41,073 bases of DNA from positions 1 to 41,073 of IMG/VR virus record IMGVR_UViG_2537561979_000009. The stretch is one strand, 5' to 3'. Positions 7,741 through 34,550 of the stretch are shown here, one piece after another. The DNA comes from a virus (taxonomy: Duplodnaviria > Heunggongvirae > Uroviricota > Caudoviricetes). Below the pieces are notes generated by a model, which was not told where the DNA came from, made no database searches, and was given only the letters and a program-made list of their open reading frames with translations. Every line of letters begins with the position of its first letter. Position 1 is the first letter of the stretch. Position numbers and translations under genes: made by a program.

Positions 7741-10316
7741 CGTCCACCTCCGGAGAACAGACCACCATCACGCATCTGTGTCTGAATTTCATCACGGGCA
7801 CCCTTGCGGGCCATGTCATACACCGCCTTCAGCATCTGTGGACCTGGCAGACCATTCGTACCGTCGTTCTGAATCACCACGTTGTTGTTCTGCTCAAACC
7901 TGATACCCTCTGAACGCCGCATTTGTGCCGGACTTCCGGTGCCACCGACATAACCACCAGTGGCATAGCCGCGCATCAGCCGGTAGAGATTTCCCACGCC
8001 AATCCGGCTGGTTGCCTCCTTCGTGAAGACAAACTCACCACGGTGAACAATCCCCGCTGGCTCATATTTGCCGCCGGTTCCCGTAAATCCCCCGGTCGCA
8101 AAATGGAATTTCGCCGCAGCGGCCTGAATGGCTGTACCGCCTGACGCGGATGCTCCACCACCGGCAGCACCGCCAATGGCGCTGCCGATACTCCCGACAA
8201 TCCCCACCATTGCCTGCTTAAGCAGAATTTCTGTCATCATGGACAGCACGGAACGGGTGAAGCTGCGCCAGTTCTGCTCACTGCCGGTCAGCATCGCCGC
8301 CATATTCTGTGCAATACCATCAAAGGTCTGCGTGGCTGCACTTTTAACCTGCGACATACTGTCCGTGGCGCTCTCTTCCCACTCACTCCAGCCGGACTTC
8401 AGGCCTGCCATCCAGCTCCCGCGAAGCTGGTCTTCAGCCGCCCAGGTCTTTTTCTGCTCTGACATGACGTTATTCAGCGCCAGCGGATTATCGCCATACT
8501 GTTCCTTCAGACGCTGTTCTGTGGCTTCCCGCGCTGCCTGCCGGTCAGTCAGCCCCCGGCTTTTCGCATCAATGGCGGCCCGTTTTGCCCGTTGCTGCTG
8601 TGCGAATTTATCCGCCTGCTGCGCCAGCGCGTTCAGGCGCTCCTGATACGTAACCTTGTCGCCAAGTGCAGCCAGCTGGCGTTTGTACTCCAGCGTCTCA
8701 TCTTTATGCGCCAGCAGGGATTTCTCCTGTGCGGACAGCTGGCGACGTTGTGCCGCCTCCTCCAGTACCGCGAACTGACTCTCCGCCTTCCACAAATCCC
8801 GGCGCTGCTGGCTGATTTTCTCATTCGCTCCGGCATGCTTCTCCAGCGTCCGGAGTTCAGCCTGAAGCGTCAGCAGGGCAGCATGAGCACTGTCTTCCTG
8901 ACGATCGCCCGCAGACACCTTCACGCCGGACTGTTTCGGCTTTTTCAGCGTCGCTTCATAGTCCTTTTTCGCCGCCGCCATCAGCGTGTTGTAATCTGCC
9001 TGCAGGATTTTCCCGTCTTTCAGTGCCTTGTTCAGTTCTTCCTGACGGGCGGTATATTTCTCCAGCGGCGTCTGCAGCCGTTCGTAAGCCTTCTGCGCCT
9101 CTTCGGTATATTTCAGCCGTGATGCCTCAGACTCGGCCCAGTCCTTTGCTGCCATCTCTCTGGCCTTTTCAAGATCGGCCTGCAACGTGGCGGCTGAAAG
9201 CCCAAGTTGCGCATTCGCTCTGTCCTCCCATGCTCCCCGGAGATTGGCAAGAAATGCTGAGGTTTTACCGCGCCGGTGGCTCCGGCTCTGATACCACTGC
9301 CATTTTTTATCCGCTTCATCAAAAGCCTTTTCAGCTTTGGCGAGCATATCTGCAGAGGAGTCCGGACGACCAATATCCAGCACCGAATCCCACATGGATT
9401 TGAATGCCCGTGCTGTCCTGTCTGCCCAGGTCTCCAGCGTGCCCATGTTCTCTTTCAGGCGGCGGGTCTGGTCATCAAACCCTTTCGTTGCGGCCTCGTT
9501 CGCCGCCTGCAATGCCCCGGCTTCATCTCCGGAACGCTGCAACTGAGCAACATACGCAATCTGCTCCGCCGTCACGTTATGGAACTGACGTGCCATCGCT
9601 GTCAGTCCCGACGTCGGGTCTGTGGTCAGCTTCCCGAAGGCTTCAGCGACCTTGTCCACCTCCACGCCGGATGCAGAGGAGAAACGCGCCACACTCTGGC
9701 TGATGGATGCAATCTGAGCCTCACCGCTTACTCCCGCCTTAACCAGTGCGCTGAGTGACTCGCTGGTCTGGTTAAACGTCAGCCCTGCCGCCTGCCCGGC
9801 TCTGGACAGGACCAGCATACGATCTGCCGTCAGTCCCGACTGATTGCCGGAAAGGACCAGCGTTTTGTTGAAATCGGACAGGGTTGAGTTGCCCTGATAC
9901 CAGGCATACGCCAGCGCACCGGTTGCCACCGCCAGCGAGGTGGCCCCGACCATCGGCAGGGTGATCGCACCGGCAAGCCCCCTGAACATGGGGATCATCC
10001 CGCCGAAGGAGTCCTTCACCTGACCACCCTGTTGCAGCAGGATCAGCCACGGGTTCTGCCCGCCTGCAAGCTGCGTGGCCACGTCAGTGAACTGTGCAGG
10101 CAGCATACGCATGGCGGCTTTATACTGCCCGACGGAAATCCCCGCTTTCTGTGCAGCCAGCGCCTGTCGGCTCAGCGACTGTTCAACGACTGCCGCTGTT
10201 TTTTTCGCATCACTTTCCGTACCGGAAAAATGACGCCTGACTCTGGCCATCTGCTCGTCAAATCTGGCCGCATCCAGACTTAAATCAACGACCAGATCGC
10301 CTACCGGTTCAGCCAT
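7737..10316 (-). CDS. H: Tail tape measure protein H
   Basis: 859 aa, coiled-coil rich, lambda H-like order and length. Confidence 0.93.
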   Translation of the reverse strand: MAEPVGDLVVDLSLDAARFDEQMARVRRHFSGTESDAKKTAAVVEQSLSRQALAAQKAGISVGQYKAAMRMLPAQFTDVATQLAGGQNPWLILLQQGGQVKDSFGGMIPMFRGLAGAITLPMVGATSLAVATGALAYAWYQGNSTLSDFNKTLVLSGNQSGLTADRMLVLSRAGQAAGLTFNQTSESLSALVKAGVSGEAQIASISQSVARFSSASGVEVDKVAEAFGKLTTDPTSGLTAMARQFHNVTAEQIAYVAQLQRSGDEAGALQAANEAATKGFDDQTRRLKENMGTLETWADRTARAFKSMWDSVLDIGRPDSSADMLAKAEKAFDEADKKWQWYQSRSHRRGKTSAFLANLRGAWEDRANAQLGLSAATLQADLEKAREMAAKDWAESEASRLKYTEEAQKAYERLQTPLEKYTARQEELNKALKDGKILQADYNTLMAAAKKDYEATLKKPKQSGVKVSAGDRQEDSAHAALLTLQAELRTLEKHAGANEKISQQRRDLWKAESQFAVLEEAAQRRQLSAQEKSLLAHKDETLEYKRQLAALGDKVTYQERLNALAQQADKFAQQQRAKRAAIDAKSRGLTDRQAAREATEQRLKEQYGDNPLALNNVMSEQKKTWAAEDQLRGSWMAGLKSGWSEWEESATDSMSQVKSAATQTFDGIAQNMAAMLTGSEQNWRSFTRSVLSMMTEILLKQAMVGIVGSIGSAIGGAAGGGASASGGTAIQAAAAKFHFATGGFTGTGGKYEPAGIVHRGEFVFTKEATSRIGVGNLYRLMRGYATGGYVGGTGSPAQMRRSEGIRFEQNNNVVIQNDGTNGLPGPQMLKAVYDMARKGARDEIQTQMRDGGLFSGGGR

Positions 10317-29619: not shown

Positions 29620-30269
29620 GCCGCCATCTCCCTGACCAGTTTTTCCGCCTGCTGGCGAACCTGCGCCAGAAACGCCTCACCACATGCCTCAAGTTCATCA
29701 CGCCCGATGTAGCTGATTGCCGGTCCCTTCCAGGTCTTGTCGAAAACAGCAATAGCACCAGCGAAGAAAGCGCCTGTCGGCACCTGCTTCTCGTCCTTCG
29801 GTATAAACCAGGCAGGCAGTTCAAAACCAATACGCCCGCGAATAAAAGCAATATGATCTGCATCTTCCGGCCACCACACTTCGCTGGTGGCCGCTTTGAT
29901 CAGGAAAACATAGCGCCCGCCCTTATCACGCATGGCACTGGCATGTTTCATGATGTAACGCATGCCGGTGATGTATTGCCCCTCATGCTGACTGGCGCGG
30001 CTGTATGGAGGATTACCAAAGGCAGCACCTTTAAGCTCCGCAAGGCGTTCTGACCAGTCACGCGCCAGCGCGTTGTCTTCTGCCGTGTAATACGCGGCAC
30101 ATTTGGCGTTATCACCGTCAGTGAACAGATCCAGAACAAACGGGCCAAACAGGGTGTTAATTCCCCAGAAAATGTTGTCCGGCGTGCGCCACTGATCACC
30201 CACTTCCTTCAGTTCATGGGCTGGTTTGTTCCGCAGTTCCACCAGCTCCTGGCAATATTTATTACTCAT
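29616..30269 (-). CDS. Phage DNA N6-adenine methyltransferase (Dam-like)
   Basis: GNPPYS catalytic motif; start taken at MSNKYCQ (30269), abutting the upstream gene stop, rather than the ORF start at 30302. Confidence 0.7.
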   Translation of the reverse strand: MSNKYCQELVELRNKPAHELKEVGDQWRTPDNIFWGINTLFGPFVLDLFTDGDNAKCAAYYTAEDNALARDWSERLAELKGAAFGNPPYSRASQHEGQYITGMRYIMKHASAMRDKGGRYVFLIKAATSEVWWPEDADHIAFIRGRIGFELPAWFIPKDEKQVPTGAFFAGAIAVFDKTWKGPAISYIGRDELEACGEAFLAQVRQQAEKLVREMAA

Positions 30270-30763
30270 TAAGCCCCCACGTAATTCCTTGACAGATACC
30301 ACTCATCACCCGATACAGCTCGCTTGCTGCTTTTCCGTAAGCACTGCTCACGACGCGCCAGAAAATTGTTTCGTTCTGGCTGGGAGTGGCTTTCTCGGAA
30401 TGCCGCCATCCACACCGTTGCAGCACGACGGTATAAACCCCTGGACTCCAGCTCTTCAGCCTGGCGGGTCAGGCACAAAATCACCCGGGGATCGTTAGTG
30501 CCGACATAGAAATTGCGCACAGGTTTGGTTTCACGAACTGGTTGTGGTTCCGGCTCCTGCGCTCTCTCAGTCAGGCGTGGGAAATGTCTGCGTGTATCTC
30601 CTTCACAACGGTGAGCCACACGCCCACTCTGACGTAACTTGCTTGCTGACTGCAGAACGCGCTGCCGTGAGTAACCTGCAAAAGCATCCGCAATGTCTCC
30701 GGAAGTACACCCCGGATGGGCTTCAATGAATTTCTGAACTTCATTCAAAAGACTCATGATCAC
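30269..30763 (-). CDS. Putative PerC-family transcriptional regulator, 164 aa
   Basis: Motif ...LESRGLYRRAATVWMAAF... is reminiscent of PerC/Pch proteins; start overlaps the O-like gene stop. Tentative. Confidence 0.35.
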   Translation of the reverse strand: MIMSLLNEVQKFIEAHPGCTSGDIADAFAGYSRQRVLQSASKLRQSGRVAHRCEGDTRRHFPRLTERAQEPEPQPVRETKPVRNFYVGTNDPRVILCLTRQAEELESRGLYRRAATVWMAAFRESHSQPERNNFLARREQCLRKSSKRAVSGDEWYLSRNYVGA

Positions 30764-31578
30764 CCCCTGAATCCTGCCGGGATCTGGCTGTAGTCCACGT
30801 TGTCGTAACTGGCTTTGAAGTACGGGTCCTCACGTCTGGCTGCAGATACCGCAGGAACTTCCCAGGGTTCTTCGAAATGACGATCCGGACCAAAGAACGT
30901 GACAGCCTGTTTCACAAATTGTGTGCCGCTGTTACCCATCGCAGATACCCAGCCCGCGTAGCGTTTCACACCTTCCAGCATGGTTTCGGGGTTTACCCCC
31001 TCATTCAAACGGGCTTTCCAGGCTTTGAAGGCTGCAGATTTTGAATTGCCACCAGCACGTTTGGGATATGCCAGCCATGCCTGCTCAAACTCCGGAGAGT
31101 ATTCCGGTCGGTTTGAACGAACTCGCACAGACTCATCAGCAGATGCACCAACAGCTATTGGTTCATTGACTGGTTCTTTGACTGGTTCAAAAGAGTGACT
31201 GGTTCTGGGTGAATCTCCTGCACTACCCCCTGGTGCAACTCCTGCACTACATGGTGAATTTGCTGCACCAGATAGTGAATTATTTGCACTACCCCCTAGT
31301 GAATCTCCTGCACCATCCAGATGAAGGAGATAGATATTACTTGAGTTACCTTTTTCACCTTTCCGGGTGACTTTTTTTACCAGCCCGGACTCACAAAGGG
31401 CCGCAATATGATTCATCACAGAACGTTTGCTAATCTCGCACTGGTCAGCAATATGCTGGTAGCTGGGCCAGCACTCACCCTGATCGCTGGCATTATCAGC
31501 CAGCTTGATCAGAACCAGTTTTCGCAATGGATTACCCACTCGAATTTTCATCGCTTTAACCATCAGCTCCATACTCAT
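30760..31578 (-). CDS. Replication initiation protein (lambda O analogue) with internal iterons
   Basis: N-terminal winged-helix region (LRKLVLIKLADNASDQGECWPSYQHIADQCEISKRSVMNHIAALCESGLV), Gly/Ser/Ala linker encoded by iteron DNA; early-right operon position. Confidence 0.6.
   Translation of the reverse strand: MSMELMVKAMKIRVGNPLRKLVLIKLADNASDQGECWPSYQHIADQCEISKRSVMNHIAALCESGLVKKVTRKGEKGNSSNIYLLHLDGAGDSLGGSANNSLSGAANSPCSAGVAPGGSAGDSPRTSHSFEPVKEPVNEPIAVGASADESVRVRSNRPEYSPEFEQAWLAYPKRAGGNSKSAAFKAWKARLNEGVNPETMLEGVKRYAGWVSAMGNSGTQFVKQAVTFFGPDRHFEEPWEVPAVSAARREDPYFKASYDNVDYSQIPAGFRG
31209..31313. repeat. Five phased iterons GTGAATnnnnTGCAC (one variant), candidate replication origin
   Basis: Copies begin near 31209, 31233, 31254, 31275 and 31299 (spacing 24/21/21/24 bp); additional TGACTGGTTC x3 at about 31166-31205. 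Confidence 0.65.
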
Positions 31579-31799
31579 GCTGCACCTCCGAGATGCTTCA
31601 TGTTTTTTCCGGAGCGAAAGGCTATAAGCGGCATACTGATGCGGTAATTACGGCCCAGCGGTTCACAAATCACCTTCTGACATTCACGGTCAACCAGGCT
31701 AACACGTAGAACATGCCCTGCAGGCGTGGTGTACCACTGACCCGGACGAGGACAACGGAAAGTCTGATTGGTAAAACGTTTGAAAATATTCCGGATCAT
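31575..31799 (-). CDS. Hypothetical small protein, 74 aa
   Basis: Start overlaps the Rha stop and its stop overlaps the O-like start. Confidence 0.4.
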   Translation of the reverse strand: MIRNIFKRFTNQTFRCPRPGQWYTTPAGHVLRVSLVDRECQKVICEPLGRNYRISMPLIAFRSGKNMKHLGGAA

Positions 31800-32959
31800 T
31801 TGCGCCCCCTTACCTCTGAAGGGTTCAGCGACAAATTTATGAGGCAGGCCAGTGCCGAAGCATCATTAATATAGTCATATAAGCTAACAGCCAGCGGAGA
31901 TTCGGCTTTTGCCAACATAGGATAAAGCTGCTGCAGCCAGACCTGATGAATTGATGAAATGTAGGAACAGAGAACGCTGGCGTTATGTGCAACGTCGCTC
32001 GGTACAGCGGGCTTTGAAAGCTGTTTCTCCATCTGGTTAAAGGCATTGATGTATGCCTCTTTGAACTGGGCAGCACGTTTCCCCGTGAAACCCATAGCAA
32101 GAAACGCAAAGCCGTCGCGGGTTATTTGATAGCAAGGAAGTTTGCGAGTACCGCCGTTGGGCTGGCGTACCAAAATTGATGTCTCCGCAAAATTGCGGGC
32201 ACAAAACTCTGGAGAACAATCCAAAATGCGGATCTTTTTCAGAACATCGTCATGACGTTTAGAGAAGAAGTCAGCAACAGCCAAAGAAGATGTAACAGCC
32301 TGACCATCAACGATGGCAATTTCAGGTTGAGAGAGGGTTGGGAGAGTAGTCATGGTGACAGCCCCGGTAGTCAGTTTTTTAGAAAACTCACCACATGGGA
32401 CGCCAATCACAGAGGTGGTGAGACGTACAGGGTTGGCGTTACCGGAGACTACCGAACCCGGCCCGACCGAAGTCGGCCCTGTACGCCCCACCATAATTTG
32501 GGCGTAGCAATGCTCATGACACGAAAAAACCGCATGAGCGCGGTTATGCTCAGTAATCAATTTCAGGACGCCAATCCCGGCACCCGTTTTATAAGGTGCC
32601 TGAACAGTGTAACGTCCCGGAATGGCAGAATCAATGTGCTGGTGGTCCTTCACACTCAACAAAATCACGCCTGAATTTCCACAAAGGACTAAAGCACTCA
32701 TGCGGGTAGTCTTTGCGAAAATAGATAACGCGCTGTGTTTCTGGTTCCCAACGAATAACATGAACATAAAGTCCTCTTCCGTCACGAAACCAGCGGTTAA
32801 GTTCCTGCACAACTCGCCCCCCACAGTCAGGTAAAGTTCTCTGTGGTTACTTACAGCCAGGTGATTTGGTAATCTGCATTCATGCCGTAACAACAGGTGT
32901 TCAGCCACGCGGACCACCAGCTGTTGCGACCAACGGTTATTTGCCGTTAAACTGTTCAT
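31796..32959 (-). CDS. Rha family phage regulatory protein; Rha domain in the C-terminal 185 aa, N-terminal 202 codons of uncertain reality
   Basis: MTTLPTLSQPEIAIVDGQAVTSSLAVADFFSKRHDDVLKKIRILDCSPEFCARNF...MGFTG matches the Phage_pRha pattern and begins at an internal Met near 32353; the ORF stays open to 32959. Confidence 0.6.
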   Translation of the reverse strand: MNSLTANNRWSQQLVVRVAEHLLLRHECRLPNHLAVSNHRELYLTVGGELCRNLTAGFVTEEDFMFMLFVGNQKHSALSIFAKTTRMSALVLCGNSGVILLSVKDHQHIDSAIPGRYTVQAPYKTGAGIGVLKLITEHNRAHAVFSCHEHCYAQIMVGRTGPTSVGPGSVVSGNANPVRLTTSVIGVPCGEFSKKLTTGAVTMTTLPTLSQPEIAIVDGQAVTSSLAVADFFSKRHDDVLKKIRILDCSPEFCARNFAETSILVRQPNGGTRKLPCYQITRDGFAFLAMGFTGKRAAQFKEAYINAFNQMEKQLSKPAVPSDVAHNASVLCSYISSIHQVWLQQLYPMLAKAESPLAVSLYDYINDASALACLINLSLNPSEVRGRK

Positions 32960-33507
32960 GCGTTAGTTTCTCCACAGACACAAAACGCCACGACGCCCGG
33001 AGCTGCACACTCGCGGGCGTCACTCTTTTCTGGAACGCAGAAAATTTTGTAGACCAGTGCCGCATGTTCCTGGAGCTTCGAAATCGACAGATACAACTCA
33101 TCATTAATTGCTGTCTGCTCATGTGGCTCCACTACCCCGTCTTCGATTGCCGAACGAATCTGCTTTGAGTAACTCCCGATCTGTTCAATAACTTCCAGTA
33201 GACGTTGGTTGATATCAGCGTTCTCTACTTCCTCAATTTCTGGAAGTGATACAAACACCCCACCAGCAGACTGTGCGACAGCATCCGCAATGTAGTGAGT
33301 GCCAGCAGCACGCTGTAAAATCATTGCCCATCCCAGCGGGAAAATCTGATCGCCATCTGCACGAAGGCGGTTGAATAAAGCGTTCTCTGTTACATCCAGC
33401 CACTCAGCAGCTTCAGCGTAGCCCCCCGGCAACGCCGCGATAGTTTTTCTGACAGCTTTCACGTACCACTCAGGCTGTTTTTCCACTTTCCAGTGATGAT
33501 TACCCAC
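32956..33507 (-). CDS. Putative CII-like regulatory protein, 183 aa, GTG start
   Basis: Second gene of the rightward operon after cro; start overlaps cro stop; family guessed by position. Confidence 0.35.
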   Translation of the reverse strand: MGNHHWKVEKQPEWYVKAVRKTIAALPGGYAEAAEWLDVTENALFNRLRADGDQIFPLGWAMILQRAAGTHYIADAVAQSAGGVFVSLPEIEEVENADINQRLLEVIEQIGSYSKQIRSAIEDGVVEPHEQTAINDELYLSISKLQEHAALVYKIFCVPEKSDARECAAPGVVAFCVCGETNA

Positions 33508-33760
33508 AGCTTACCTCCTGTTCCTGTGGTTTAAACCCATTCTGATTTTGGCTAGATTGAAAACGTGCCGGATAAAGAATCTGCATTTCGCTGATTTCAC
33601 CCTTAAAAAAATTGGCCAGACGTTCTGCAAGATCGATAGATGGAATTTGTTCCAATCTTTCAATACGACTCAGCGTCGCTGGATTGACCTGAACGCCAGC
33701 AGCAACATGCTGCAAAGTAAATCCGTGCGCCTTACGCACATTCCGTAATGGTGATTGCAT
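33500..33760 (-). CDS. cro: Cro-like repressor (XRE-type HTH)
   Basis: 86 aa, first gene divergent from cI, HTH ...QHVAAGVQVNPATLSRIERL...; coordinates from the ORF track. Confidence 0.75.
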   Translation of the reverse strand: MQSPLRNVRKAHGFTLQHVAAGVQVNPATLSRIERLEQIPSIDLAERLANFFKGEISEMQILYPARFQSSQNQNGFKPQEQEVSCG

Positions 33761-33857: not shown

Positions 33858-34550
33858 ATGAACATAGGAAACCGAGTCAGACAACTTCGCCAGGCGAAGA
33901 ACATGAAAATCGCCGATCTCGCTGAAGCAATAGGAGTGGATGCGGCGAATATCTCACGCCTGGAAACAGGTAAGCAGAAACAATTCACTGAACAAGCCCT
34001 GAGTAATATTGCCAGGAGCTTAGGTGTTGATATTGCTGATCTCTTTACCTCAGACTTCAAAAGTAATACTGTATGTAAAAACAGTATTAGTGAGGATGTT
34101 GCGCAGGTGAAGGATGTATTCCGTATTGAAATGCTGGATGTCAGTGCCAGTGCGGGAAATGGCCTTATCCAGGGCGGTGATGTCATTGATGTGATTCATG
34201 CCATTGAATACAGAACTGATAATGCTGTATCGATGTTTGGCGGACGGCCAGCCAATCACATTAAAGTTATCAACGTTCGTGGGGACAGTATGTGTCCAAC
34301 CATTGAACCAGGAGATCTCATCTTCGTTGATGTCAGTATCAATCAGTTTGATGGAGATGGTATCTATGTATTTGGTTTTGATGATAAAATTTATGTCAAA
34401 CGACTGCAAATGATACCTGACAAACTACTGGTGATTTCTGATAACCAGATTTACCGTGAATGGGGAATTACCAGCGAAAATGAACACCGGTTTATGGTCT
34501 TTGGAAAGGTCTTAATCAGCCAGTCACAAACCCTTAAGCGACACAATTAA
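33858..34550 (+). CDS. cI: CI repressor: N-terminal HTH plus C-terminal S24 (LexA-like) autoproteolytic domain
   Basis: 230 aa; HTH (MKIADLAEAIGVDAANISRLETGKQ), C-terminal GDSM serine and KR lysine motifs. Confidence 0.85.
   Translation: MNIGNRVRQLRQAKNMKIADLAEAIGVDAANISRLETGKQKQFTEQALSNIARSLGVDIADLFTSDFKSNTVCKNSISEDVAQVKDVFRIEMLDVSASAGNGLIQGGDVIDVIHAIEYRTDNAVSMFGGRPANHIKVINVRGDSMCPTIEPGDLIFVDVSINQFDGDGIYVFGFDDKIYVKRLQMIPDKLLVISDNQIYREWGITSENEHRFMVFGKVLISQSQTLKRHN

What the first reader, a model, noticed from the sequence alone, without database searches (positions are those of the whole stretch)
32354..32959. About 600 bp between the CII-like gene and the Rha domain is open in-frame but looks non-canonical
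The Rha domain begins at an internal Met near 32353, yet the same frame runs 202 codons further upstream to an ATG overlapping the CII-like stop. That extension is Cys/His-rich and contains a terminator-like hairpin on the minus strand at about 32525-32548 (AACCGC-GCTCAT-GCGGTT then TTTTCG). It may be a true N-terminal domain, a separate unrecognised gene, or a regulatory RNA region.
Basis: partly seen in the sequence, partly recalled or inferred. Interest (0 to 1): 0.45.

Follow-up and report, generated by a model that had tools for sequence, protein, structure and literature searches.

The report
Phage RNA-immunity cassette inside read-through ORF
The 600-bp "extension" of the Rha gene is not a protein domain but a known kind of phage RNA switch (IsrK/seqA-like RNA, C4 antisense RNA and their target sites, plus a small DUF4222 gene in another frame), overlaid by an open reading frame that evolution keeps open, as in the eta/kil region of satellite phage P4.

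Summary
ORF 31796-32959 (-) is 387 codons. Met203 (32353) precedes the Rha domain, and the first ATG overlaps the stop of the CII-like ymfL gene. The frame is open in only 4 of 20,000 shuffles.

The extension is composite:
- a DUF4222 gene in another frame (32631-32810);
- a conserved promoter-like site (32606-32634);
- a C4/CI-type antisense RNA (32411-32498, 82 bits);
- C4 target sites a2 and b2, with b2 ending 10 nt before the Rha ATG.

Across 22 loop types, the C4 loops co-vary with both target sets. The frame through isrK-C4 is open in 33 of 40 distinct modules, against about 4 expected and 5 and 2 in the other frames. Its amino acids are not conserved: pN/pS is about 0.8-2, against 0.22 for Rha and 0.14 for DUF4222 in its own frame.

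This matches phage P4 eta/kil with seqA-CI-seqC. It is also related to P1 c4-icd-ant and Gifsy-1 isrK-orf45-anrP. Likely mechanism: transcripts from the internal promoter give the RNAs that silence Rha, while translated transcripts from upstream pass through. It is a new member of a known kind, of modest interest.

The parts
31796..32959 (-). Long 387-codon ORF (eta-like read-through frame fused in frame to Rha). Its ATG overlaps the ymfL stop (ATGA) and its stop overlaps the ATG of the next ORF (31575-31799).
   Evidence: The frame is open in 4 of 20,000 shuffles. The same frame is open in 33 of 40 related modules.
32354..32959 (-). The 202-codon extension named in the finding. The frame is kept open but is not constrained at the amino-acid level.
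   Evidence: Window against ST64B, pN/pS in the long frame: 0.37 (32811-32959), 1.96 (DUF4222 overlap), 0.75-0.86 (isrK/C4) and 0.76 (targets), against 0.22 in Rha. Pfam Phage_ASH PF10554 hits aa 117-212, E=4e-11.
32631..32810 (-). DUF4222 small gene (59 aa, GTG start), in a different frame from the long ORF and wholly overlapped by it.
   Evidence: Pfam PF13973 E=2e-13. pN/pS is 0.14 in its own frame against ST64B. It is conserved in ST64B and L035 and annotated by PGAP in L002, L003 and L005.
32606..32634 (-). Putative internal sigma-70 promoter (the PisrK / P4 PLE analogue): TTGATT, 17 nt, TACACT, ending 6 nt before the isrK +1. The -35 hexamer overlaps the DUF4222 stop codon.
   Evidence: Read from the sequence. 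It is conserved across related modules, and Gifsy-1 and L007 carry TTGACA-17-TATATT at the same place. It matches only 8 of 12 consensus positions, so the scan does not list it. Its function was not tested.
32523..32599 (-). IsrK / P4 seqA-type RNA: two 5' hairpins plus an intrinsic terminator.
   Evidence: Rfam RF01394, 60.1 bits, E=1.5e-10, full length. The MFE fold keeps the hairpins.
32568..32574 (-). a1 target (UUGGCGU) in the loop of IsrK hairpin 2, complementary to a' of C4.
   Evidence: It co-varies with a' and a2 across immunity types.
32548..32558 (-). b1 target (GAUUACUGAGC) in IsrK, complementary to the b' loop of C4 (with G-U pairs).
32528..32545 (-). It is the Rho-independent terminator stem-loop of IsrK, followed by a U-run down to 32523.
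32411..32498 (-). C4 / P4 CI-type antisense RNA. By analogy with the annotated P1 c4, the mature RNA would be about 32414-32492.
   Evidence: Rfam RF01695, 82.3 bits, E=8e-15. 100% of cells are paired and 12 of 27 pairs show compensatory changes in 10 sequences. P1 annotation and sequence.
32492..32494 (-). Conserved AUG at C4 model positions 5-7 (Met156 of the long ORF). It is the positional equivalent of the first AUG of Gifsy-1 orf45, and here it is in frame with Rha.
   Evidence: Invariant in alignment A1. Gifsy-1 isrK +107 corresponds to C4 position 5 (with PMC4825925 Table 1).
32446..32457 (-). b' specificity loop of C4 (GUUCGGUAGUCU).
32432..32440 (-). a' specificity segment of C4 (AACGCCAAC).
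32400..32406 (-). a2 target (UUGGCGU), 5 nt after the end of C4.
   Evidence: P1 has the same layout.
32363..32372 (-). b2 target (GACUACCGGG). It ends 10 nt before the Rha AUG and covers the G-rich Shine-Dalgarno-like run.
31796..32353 (-). Nested Rha-family protein (185 aa from Met203, starting MTTLPT...). It is the regulated cargo, the analogue of P4 Kil, P1 Icd/Ant and Gifsy-1 AnrP.
   Evidence: Pfam Phage_pRha E=6e-27. pN/pS is 0.22. The nested ATG at +142 or +145 from the C4 start and the N-terminal motif M(A/T)T.P.. are shared with P4 Kil.
32956..33507 (-). Upstream CII-like gene ymfL (Phage_CP76), to which the long ORF is coupled by an ATGA overlap.

Best explanation
The 606 bp are the control region of a P4/P1-type RNA-immunity cassette that sits in the early rightward operon of an e14/SfV/ST64B-like lambdoid prophage.

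Order on the minus strand:
- the stop of the CII-like ymfL, overlapped by the ATG of a long frame;
- about 150 nt of spacer;
- a DUF4222 gene in another frame;
- an internal promoter;
- the IsrK (seqA-like) RNA, carrying target sites a1 and b1 and an intrinsic terminator;
- the C4 (CI-like) antisense RNA, carrying a' and b';
- target sites a2 and b2 over the ribosome-binding site;
- the Rha-family gene, starting at Met203.

Shown here from sequence and comparison: both RNAs, their structure, the three-way complementarity, the DUF4222 gene, and selection for an uninterrupted frame that starts upstream of the internal promoter and is coupled to the preceding gene.

Inferred from the P4, P1 and Gifsy-1 literature:
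1. In the lysogen the internal promoter makes an untranslated leader. It ends at the IsrK terminator or is processed to stable C4.
2. C4 pairs with a2/b2, blocks Rha translation, and probably causes Rho-dependent termination before the replication genes.
3. IsrK, carrying a1/b1, competes for C4.
4. After induction, transcripts from the upstream promoter (cro-like gene, then ymfL) are translated without a break through the long frame. Ribosomes melt the IsrK terminator, the C4 fold and the target sites, so these transcripts escape the RNA immunity and express Rha and the downstream replication genes.

On this reading the extension is selected for being translated, not for what it encodes.
For: RNA genes: Rfam finds full-length isrK and C4 inside the extension. 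The C4 structure is 100% paired with 12 of 27 compensatory pairs.

Specificity: 22 distinct loop types were found. In each, b' matches b1 in isrK and b2 at fixed positions. Cognate b2 matches have a median of 11 of 12 nt, against 6 for non-cognate pairs. a' matches a1 and a2 over 7-8 nt.

Target position: b2 ends 10 nt before the nested ATG.

Reading frame: the frame of the conserved C4 AUG is open from the isrK start to the cargo ATG in 33 of 40 distinct modules. The other frames are open in 5 and 2, and shuffles predict about 4. Indels seen within the extension are multiples of three. The frame stays fused to different cargos: Rha, a 120-aa Rha-like protein, a 77-aa unknown protein and P4 Kil. 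Its ATG always lies upstream of the promoter and often overlaps the upstream stop as ATGA.

P4 comparison: P4 has the same anatomy. ORF 8168-8812 spans isrK (8615-8692) and C4 (8420-8507), with Kil nested at its end. Pfam Phage_ASH hits both the P4 ORF (E=4.5e-23) and window aa 117-212 (E=4e-11).

Literature: PMC10111431 summarises Forti et al. 1999. eta contains an internal constitutive promoter, seqA and CI. [quoted passage not shown] The Gifsy-1 paper shows that IsrK acts in trans on the orf45/STnc1160 region to switch on the downstream antirepressor-like gene.

Operon context: the window's early operon is an unbroken chain of overlapping ORFs only if the extension is counted.
Against: No expression data exist for this locus. 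The internal promoter matches only 8 of 12 consensus positions and is inferred from conservation and position.

The protein-level test rests mainly on one divergent comparator, ST64B, with 16-32 differences per segment. The first 50 codons give pN/pS of 0.37 in the long frame, so weak protein constraint there cannot be excluded.

The 40 modules are related, not independent. The matched control is the other two frames.

Gifsy-1 and L007 break the frame at the cargo start, and P1 has no spanning ORF. The RNA switch therefore works without the long frame in some relatives.

Forti et al. 1999 could not be read here. Its content rests on a secondary summary and on my own recollection.
Confidence: 0.72

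Rival explanations
1. The extension is a genuine folded N-terminal 'Ash' domain of a 387-aa Rha protein, and the protein sequence itself is the selected function.
For: Pfam PF10554 hits aa 117-212. The full-length ORF is kept in E. coli A2, ST64B and SfV and is annotated as one protein there. The frame is conserved in 33 of 40 modules. The first 50 codons give pN/pS of 0.37.
Against: pN/pS in the long frame is 1.96 across the DUF4222 overlap and 0.75-0.86 across isrK/C4, against 0.22 in Rha. Variation concentrates in the RNA specificity segments and is compensated at the RNA level. BLASTP between the window extension and P4 Eta finds nothing. In Gifsy-1 and L007 the frame is separated from the cargo. 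[quoted passage not shown]
Confidence: 0.07
2. Only the RNAs and DUF4222 matter. Rha starts at Met203, and the long open frame is an untranslated by-product of conserved, G+C-rich RNA sequence.
For: There is no amino-acid constraint over most of the extension. P1 runs the same RNA switch with no spanning ORF. Some RefSeq and GenBank gene models start Rha at internal codons.
Against: The frame is open in 4 of 20,000 shuffles of the window's own sequence. It is open in 33 of 40 modules, against 5 and 2 in the control frames that share the same phylogeny and composition. It persists through wholesale replacement of the specificity segments, across different cargos, and with in-frame indels only. 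Its start is repeatedly coupled by ATGA to whatever gene lies upstream. Nonsense mutations in P4 eta are reported to be polar (PMC10111431).
Confidence: 0.12
3. The frame is translated and its role is to make in-frame isoforms of Rha with different activities: 387 aa from the upstream ATG, 232 aa from the C4 AUG, and 185 aa from Met203. This would resemble P1 Ant1/Ant2 or P4 Eta/Kil.
For: Three in-frame starts exist. The AUG at C4 positions 5-7 is invariant, and in Gifsy-1 it is a start codon shown to be used. P1 ant1 and ant2 are annotated as nested products that form a complex.
Against: The extension's amino-acid sequence is poorly constrained. In other modules the same frame is fused to unrelated cargos or ends before the cargo. 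This rival is compatible with the best explanation rather than exclusive of it.
Confidence: 0.09

Closest known systems
Satellite phage P4 immunity region: eta/kil nested genes with PLE, seqA, CI RNA (seqB) and seqC (Forti et al. 1999, J Bacteriol 181:5225, as summarised in PMC10111431)
   Same: A long ORF starts upstream of an internal promoter and is coupled to the upstream gene. It runs through an isrK/seqA-type element and a C4/CI-type RNA in the same frame relative to the conserved AUG. A shorter product is nested just after the downstream target, and its N-terminus resembles that of Kil (window MTTLPTLSQPE, P4 Kil MATTLTPSHPE). Pfam PF10554 hits both ORFs.
   Different: The host element is a lambdoid prophage with a LexA-like protein repressor (ymfK), not a satellite. 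The upstream partner is a CII-like gene, not vis/alpA. The nested cargo is a 185-aa Rha-family protein, not the 65-aa Kil. A DUF4222 gene in another frame is embedded in the 5' part of the long ORF. Direct protein similarity of the extension to Eta is nil.
Phage P1/P7 immI operon: c4 antisense RNA, icd, ant (Citron & Schuster 1990; annotated in NC_005856)
   Same: The order is identical: promoter, a1, b1, C4 (a', b'), a2, b2, then the regulated start codon, with similar spacings. In P1, a2 lies 4 nt and b2 33 nt after c4, with the CDS 11 nt after b2. In the window, a2 lies 5 nt and b2 39 nt after C4, with the ATG 10 nt after b2. The cargo is an antirepressor-type regulator. The sequence around the C4 5' end is nearly the same (AAUUAU|GGUGGGGCG).
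   Different: P1 has no ORF spanning the leader (the longest open stretches are 23, 72 and 66 codons). P1 uses a separate leader gene, icd, coupled to ant. In P1 the c4 promoter carries a C1 operator. The window's cargo is Rha, not P1 Ant.
Salmonella Gifsy-1 isrK-orf45-anrP locus (Hershko-Shalev et al. 2016, PMC4825925)
   Same: Both have an IsrK RNA with its own promoter and a leaky terminator. It is followed by a C4-type RNA (STnc1160, Rfam C4 69 bits in Gifsy-1) and then an antirepressor-like gene. The first AUG of orf45 is the conserved AUG at C4 positions 5-7.
   Different: In Gifsy-1 the frame is cut by a stop just before C4 and by a stop overlapping the anrP ATG (orf45, 45 aa), so cargo expression needs translational coupling. 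In the window the same frame runs on from the ymfL stop and is fused in frame to the cargo. AnrP is an ORF6N protein unrelated to the window's Rha. The Gifsy-1 locus lies after the late antiterminator gene antQ, whereas the window's lies in the early operon before the replication genes.
Pfam PF10554 'Ash protein family' / RefSeq 'ash family protein'
   Same: Window aa 117-212 match the profile (E=4e-11). Neighbouring genomes annotate the same DNA as an ash family protein.
   Different: The profile covers exactly the isrK-C4-target stretch (P4 Eta aa 37-161). The conservation here is explained by RNA structure and pairing, not by amino-acid constraint. It is best seen as the translated image of an RNA cassette.

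Membership tests
P4-type RNA immunity cassette (eta/kil with seqA-CI-seqC) | CI/C4-type structured antisense RNA | tested here: met
   Rfam RF01695, 82.3 bits against a gathering score of 45. Own covariance model gives 99.4 bits. 12 of 27 pairs are compensatory.
P4-type RNA immunity cassette (eta/kil with seqA-CI-seqC) | Upstream seqA/IsrK-type element carrying sites complementary to the antisense RNA | tested here: met
   Rfam RF01394, 60.1 bits against 50. a1 is 7 nt and b1 is 11 nt complementary to a' and b'.
P4-type RNA immunity cassette (eta/kil with seqA-CI-seqC) | Downstream target (seqC, or a2/b2) at the ribosome-binding site of the first regulated gene | tested here: met
   a2 lies at 32400-32406 and b2 at 32363-32372, ending 10 nt before the ATG at 32353. 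Cognate against non-cognate match length is 11 against 6 nt.
P4-type RNA immunity cassette (eta/kil with seqA-CI-seqC) | Long ORF that starts upstream of the internal promoter, is coupled to the preceding gene, and spans seqA, CI and seqC with a shorter product nested at its 3' end | tested here: met
   ORF 31796-32959 has an ATGA overlap with ymfL and a nested Met203. The same frame is open in P4 and in 33 of 40 modules.
P4-type RNA immunity cassette (eta/kil with seqA-CI-seqC) | Constitutive internal promoter (PLE-like) directly upstream of seqA | tested here: inconclusive
   TTGATT-17-TACACT lies at 32606-32634. It is conserved in relatives and is replaced by TTGACA-17-TATATT in Gifsy-1, where a TSS is published (PMC4825925). 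It falls below the scan threshold, and no activity data exist.
P4-type RNA immunity cassette (eta/kil with seqA-CI-seqC) | Translation of the long ORF prevents premature (Rho-dependent) termination; the antisense RNA is made by RNase P/PNPase processing | not testable with these tools
   This needs nonsense and suppressor genetics, Rho inhibition and RNA end mapping. Only the sequence context AAUUAU|GGUGGGG shared with P1 c4 is seen.
P1/P7 immI (c4-icd-ant) | a1-b1-C4-a2-b2 layout with a C4-family RNA | tested here: met
P1/P7 immI (c4-icd-ant) | Separate leader gene (icd) whose translation is coupled to ant, with no ORF across c4 | tested here: not met
   In the window the frame is continuous and fused to the cargo. 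In P1 no frame spans the leader.
Gifsy-1 isrK-orf45-anrP | Short leader ORF (orf45) whose stop overlaps the cargo start, and an ORF6N-type AnrP cargo | tested here: not met
   The window's frame has no stop before Rha. AnrP is ORF6N and shows no similarity to the window's Rha.
Rha-family protein with a bona fide N-terminal protein domain | Purifying selection on the amino-acid sequence of the extension | tested here: not met
   pN/pS is 1.96, 0.75, 0.86 and 0.76 in four of five segments, against 0.22 in Rha. The first 50 codons give 0.37 on 32 differences, which is weak.
DUF4222 (PF13973) small phage proteins | Profile match and purifying selection in its own frame | tested here: met
   E=2e-13. 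pN/pS is 0.14. It is conserved in ST64B and L035.

The most novel reading that the evidence does not exclude
In e14/SfV/ST64B-type lambdoid prophages the P4-style read-through frame has been stretched. It now runs from the stop of the CII-like gene, through an independently conserved DUF4222 gene in another frame, an internal promoter, a terminator and two RNA genes, into Rha. What selection preserves is uninterrupted ribosome transit, which keeps the whole early operon (cro-like gene to replication genes) translationally coupled. That would make induction-specific transcripts blind to the prophage's own RNA immunity. It would be a second, RNA-based immunity layer on top of a LexA-like protein repressor, with at least 22 interchangeable specificities. 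It would also make the Pfam 'Ash' family largely the protein shadow of an RNA cassette.
Probability: 0.45. Interest if true: 0.45.

Novelty: new member of a known kind. Interest (0 to 1): 0.27.

Why it matters
The practical point concerns annotation. The same DNA carries at least five different gene models in public records: 383-387 aa, 321 aa with a DUF4222 'pseudogene', 296 aa, 287 aa, and separate 'ash family' proteins. None of the records inspected lists the two RNA genes. Recognising the cassette identifies the real regulated product, a 185-aa Rha-type regulator, and the real regulators, C4 and IsrK.

Biologically, this lambdoid prophage would combine a protein repressor with a programmable antisense-RNA immunity of the P4/P1 type. 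The reading frame that is conserved without a conserved protein is a clear natural case of selection for translation itself. This arrangement is easy to misread as a domain, or to dismiss as a spurious ORF. None of this is new in principle.

Tried and rejected
- Direct protein comparison of the extension with P4 Eta gave nothing. The link appears only through the Pfam profile and the RNA models.
- The window's Rha against Gifsy-1 AnrP showed no similarity. They are different cargos.
- RNAduplex energies for cognate against non-cognate C4-target pairs discriminated poorly: the cognate was the best partner in only 14 of 22 rows. Shared a' types and G+C-rich stems dominate the energies. I replaced this with exact-complementarity lengths of the b' loop.
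- The consensus promoter scan did not list the internal promoter, which matches 8 of 12 positions. I kept it as 'putative' on conservation and position only.
- One literature search on P4 eta/kil returned only noise, and Forti 1999 (PMC94026) is not held.
- Most of the 119 viral-contig hits to the pattern CTTCGGNNNNGCCGGNTTC were chance matches. Only loci confirmed by nhmmer or by the C4 covariance model were used.
- I did not run structure prediction or the large protein searches. A single-sequence model would not be informative, and the question was settled by comparative DNA evidence.
Full report
**1. The observation**

On the minus strand, ORF 31796..32959 encodes 387 aa.
- Met203 is at 32353, and the Pfam Rha domain covers aa 223-312.
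- The first ATG overlaps the TGA of the preceding CII-like gene as gcATGAac. That gene carries Pfam Phage_CP76 and is annotated ymfL in E. coli.
- The hairpin AACCGC/GCTCAT/GCGGTT plus a T-run lies at 32545-32528.
- The 202-codon frame is open in only 4 of 20,000 dinucleotide shuffles, while the other two frames of the stretch hold 16 and 12 stops.
- Cys plus His make up 8.4% of the extension, against 4.3% in the Rha part. This is a mild enrichment.

**2. What lies inside the 606 bp**

Rfam at gathering thresholds gives exactly two hits in the 41-kb window, and both are inside the extension on the minus strand:
- isrK (RF01394) at 32523-32599, 60 bits.
- C4 antisense RNA (RF01695) at 32411-32498, 82 bits.

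A 59-aa ORF in a different frame (32631-32810) is a DUF4222 protein (E=2e-13).

Immediately 5' of isrK lies TTGATT-17 nt-TACACT (32634-32606), ending 6 nt before the isrK +1. Its -35 hexamer overlaps the DUF4222 stop codon. This sequence is conserved in relatives. Gifsy-1, where the isrK promoter and start site are published, has TTGACA-17-TATATT at the same position (PMC4825925).

The C4 loop b' (GUUCGGUAGUCU) is complementary to two sites:
- GAUUACUGAGC inside isrK (b1);
- GACUACCGGG (b2), which ends 10 nt before the Rha AUG.

The segment a' (ACGCCAA) is complementary to UUGGCGU both in the loop of isrK hairpin 2 (a1) and 5 nt after C4 (a2).

This order and spacing match the annotated a1-b1-c4-a2-b2-icd layout of phage P1.

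**3. Comparative evidence for the RNA switch**

The region is common. 3167 of 5426 complete E. coli genomes have a match, and 639 carry at least 80% of it. It also occurs in ST64B, SfV, cdtI, many Stx phages and Gifsy-1.

A covariance model built from ten C4 copies found 49 copies in the loci collected. I collected those loci with a DNA pattern and by DNA similarity, so they are not biased toward open frames.

The C4 fold is 100% paired, and 12 of 27 pairs show compensatory changes.

Twenty-two different (b', a') combinations were seen. In each, b1, b2, a1 and a2 change in step at fixed positions. The cognate b'-b2 complementarity has a median of 11 of 12 nt, against 6 nt for non-cognate pairs.

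This is the signature of a specificity-determining antisense system. From my own knowledge, it resembles P1/P7 heteroimmunity and the P4 seqA/seqB/seqC arrangement.

**4. Is the long frame real?**

I defined frame 0 by the invariant AUG at C4 positions 5-7 (window Met156).
- Frame 0 is open from the isrK start to the cargo ATG in 33 of 40 distinct modules.
- The other two frames are open in 5 and 2 modules. Shuffles predict about 4.
- The frame survives complete replacement of the specificity segments.
- The indels seen within the extension are multiples of three.
- It is fused to different cargos: full Rha, a 120-aa Rha-like protein, a 77-aa unknown protein, and the 64-65-aa Kil of P4-like elements.
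- Its first ATG always lies upstream of the internal promoter. It frequently overlaps the stop of whatever gene precedes it as ATGA.

The frame is therefore maintained by selection.

**5. Is it a protein domain?**

I compared the window with ST64B, the most divergent full-length comparator.

| Segment | pN/pS |
|---|---|
| Rha, long frame | 0.22 |
| DUF4222 overlap, DUF4222 frame | 0.14 |
| DUF4222 overlap, long frame | 1.96 |
| Promoter plus isrK, long frame | 0.75 |
| C4, long frame | 0.86 |
| Target segment, long frame | 0.76 |
| First 50 codons, long frame | 0.37 (32 differences) |

BLASTP of the extension against P4 Eta finds nothing. The Gifsy-1 authors likewise noted that orf45 is conserved as nucleotides but not as amino acids.

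Pfam PF10554 'Ash' does hit aa 117-212 (E=4e-11). However, the same profile covers aa 37-161 of the P4 ORF (E=4.5e-23), which is exactly the stretch over seqA, CI and seqC. The profile mirrors RNA-level conservation.

The extension is kept open but is not constrained as a protein, with a caveat for the first 50 codons.

**6. Match to known systems**

P4 (NC_001609):
- ORF 8168-8812 (-) spans an isrK hit (8615-8692) and a C4 hit (8420-8507).
- It ends with the 65-aa Kil (MATTLTPSHPEF...), nested in frame.
- The ST64B record already labelled its 385-aa Sb41 'similar to P4 ORF199'.

PMC10111431 summarises Forti et al. 1999:
- eta holds an internal constitutive promoter, and its transcript is quickly terminated through CI/seqA interactions.
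- Processing of that transcript yields CI.
- Kil is translated only on occasional read-through.
- Full-length Eta is translated only from an upstream promoter and is coupled to the upstream gene.
- Eta translation prevents termination.

That paper also states that the Rfam profiles C4 and isrK detect CI and seqA relatives. The primary paper is not held, so beyond that summary I rely on memory.

Gifsy-1:
- The paper describes isrK-orf45-anrP.
- Its authors call IsrK a structural homologue of P4 SeqA.
- A processed RNA of about 80 nt, STnc1160, coincides with the Rfam C4 hit.
- The first AUG of orf45 (+107) is the C4 position-5 AUG.
- In Gifsy-1 the frame is cut just before C4 and at the anrP ATG.
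- AnrP is an ORF6N protein unrelated to the window's Rha.

P1 has the same RNA layout but no spanning ORF.

The window is thus closest to the P4 arrangement, transplanted into a lambdoid early operon.

**7. Context**

The window is an e14/SfV/ST64B-like prophage. It is 99% identical to an E. coli pig isolate and 98% identical to phage 1720a-02.

On the minus strand the following ORFs form an unbroken chain of 4-8-nt overlaps:
- the cro-like gene (33500-33760);
- ymfL (32956-33507);
- the long ORF (31796-32959);
- a 74-aa ORF (31575-31799);
- an O-like replication gene (30760-31578);
- a PerC-like gene (30269-30763).

Without the extension, this coupled chain would have a gap of about 600 nt containing a promoter, a terminator and two structured RNAs.

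**8. Proposed mechanism**

Shown here: the anatomy, the RNA structures, the cognate complementarity at the Rha ribosome-binding site, and selection on the frame and on its coupled start.

Inferred from the P4, P1 and Gifsy-1 work:
- In the lysogen the LexA-like repressor (ymfK homologue, 33858-34550) keeps pR off.
- The internal promoter makes an untranslated leader. It ends at the IsrK terminator or reads on and is processed to C4.
- By analogy with the annotated P1 c4 5' end, RNase P would cut between AAUUAU and GGUGGGG, destroying the Met156 AUG.
- C4 pairs with a2/b2 and blocks Rha initiation.
- The untranslated RNA is then probably terminated by Rho before the replication genes.
- IsrK carries a1/b1 and can titrate C4. 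This is how IsrK over-expression activates anrP in Gifsy-1.
- After induction, pR transcripts are translated continuously from ymfL into the long frame. Ribosomes prevent formation of the terminator, the C4 fold and the C4-target duplexes.
- Rha and the replication genes are then expressed despite the resident C4.
- Whether the 387-aa and 232-aa isoforms have their own activity is open.

**9. Verdict**

However, the explanation is an established one that Rfam detects directly.
- Novelty: a new member of a known kind.
- Main value: correcting inconsistent annotation, and a clean natural example of a frame selected for being translated rather than for its product.
- Interest: about 0.27.

Noticed in passing
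window 30269-33760, minus strand: The early rightward operon is an unbroken chain of ORFs overlapping by 4-8 nt: cro-like gene, ymfL, long ORF, 74-aa ORF, O-like gene, PerC-like gene. The chain is continuous only if the 202-codon extension is counted.
   Followed up: partly
L001, L004, L005, L011, L009, L010, L002, L006, L007 (public records of the same region): The same DNA is annotated with at least five incompatible gene models: Rha of 383-387, 321, 296 or 287 aa; DUF4222 present, absent or 'pseudogene'; and separate 'ash family protein' ORFs of 91-220 aa. No C4 or isrK RNA feature is listed in any of them.
   Followed up: partly
Pfam PF10554 (Phage_ASH); window 32324-32611; L131 (P4) 8168-8812: The 'Ash protein family' profile corresponds to the translated seqA-CI-seqC (isrK-C4-target) leader of P4 eta (aa 37-161). 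Conservation there is explained by RNA structure and pairing rather than by amino-acid constraint.
   Followed up: partly
L006 (C4 at 992-1079 and 1648-1735); L035 (4675-4762 and 5334-5421); L037 (3663-3750 and 4319-4406): Some prophages carry two complete isrK-C4-cargo modules in tandem. Each has a different b'/a' specificity and its own Rha-like cargo, and both lie inside continuous open frames.
   Followed up: partly
window 32492-32494; L132 (P1) 48337-48349: The invariant AUG at C4 model positions 5-7 (Met156 here, and the first AUG of orf45 in Gifsy-1) straddles the position of the annotated mature 5' end of P1 c4 (AAUUAU|GGUGGGG). C4 maturation and initiation at this AUG would therefore be mutually exclusive on one RNA molecule.
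   Followed up: no
window 32629-32634 and 32631-32633: The -35 hexamer TTGATT of the putative isrK promoter overlaps the TGA stop codon of the DUF4222 gene.
   Followed up: no
L087 5393-5480 and downstream: A near-identical copy of the module in a viral contig has the Rha cargo truncated after 41 codons, which suggests a decaying copy.
   Followed up: no
L008 (Gifsy-1) 1404-1781: In Gifsy-1 a different frame from orf45 is open for about 124 codons across isrK and C4, from inside the 3' end of antQ to 40 nt past the anrP ATG. I did not examine its significance.
   Followed up: no
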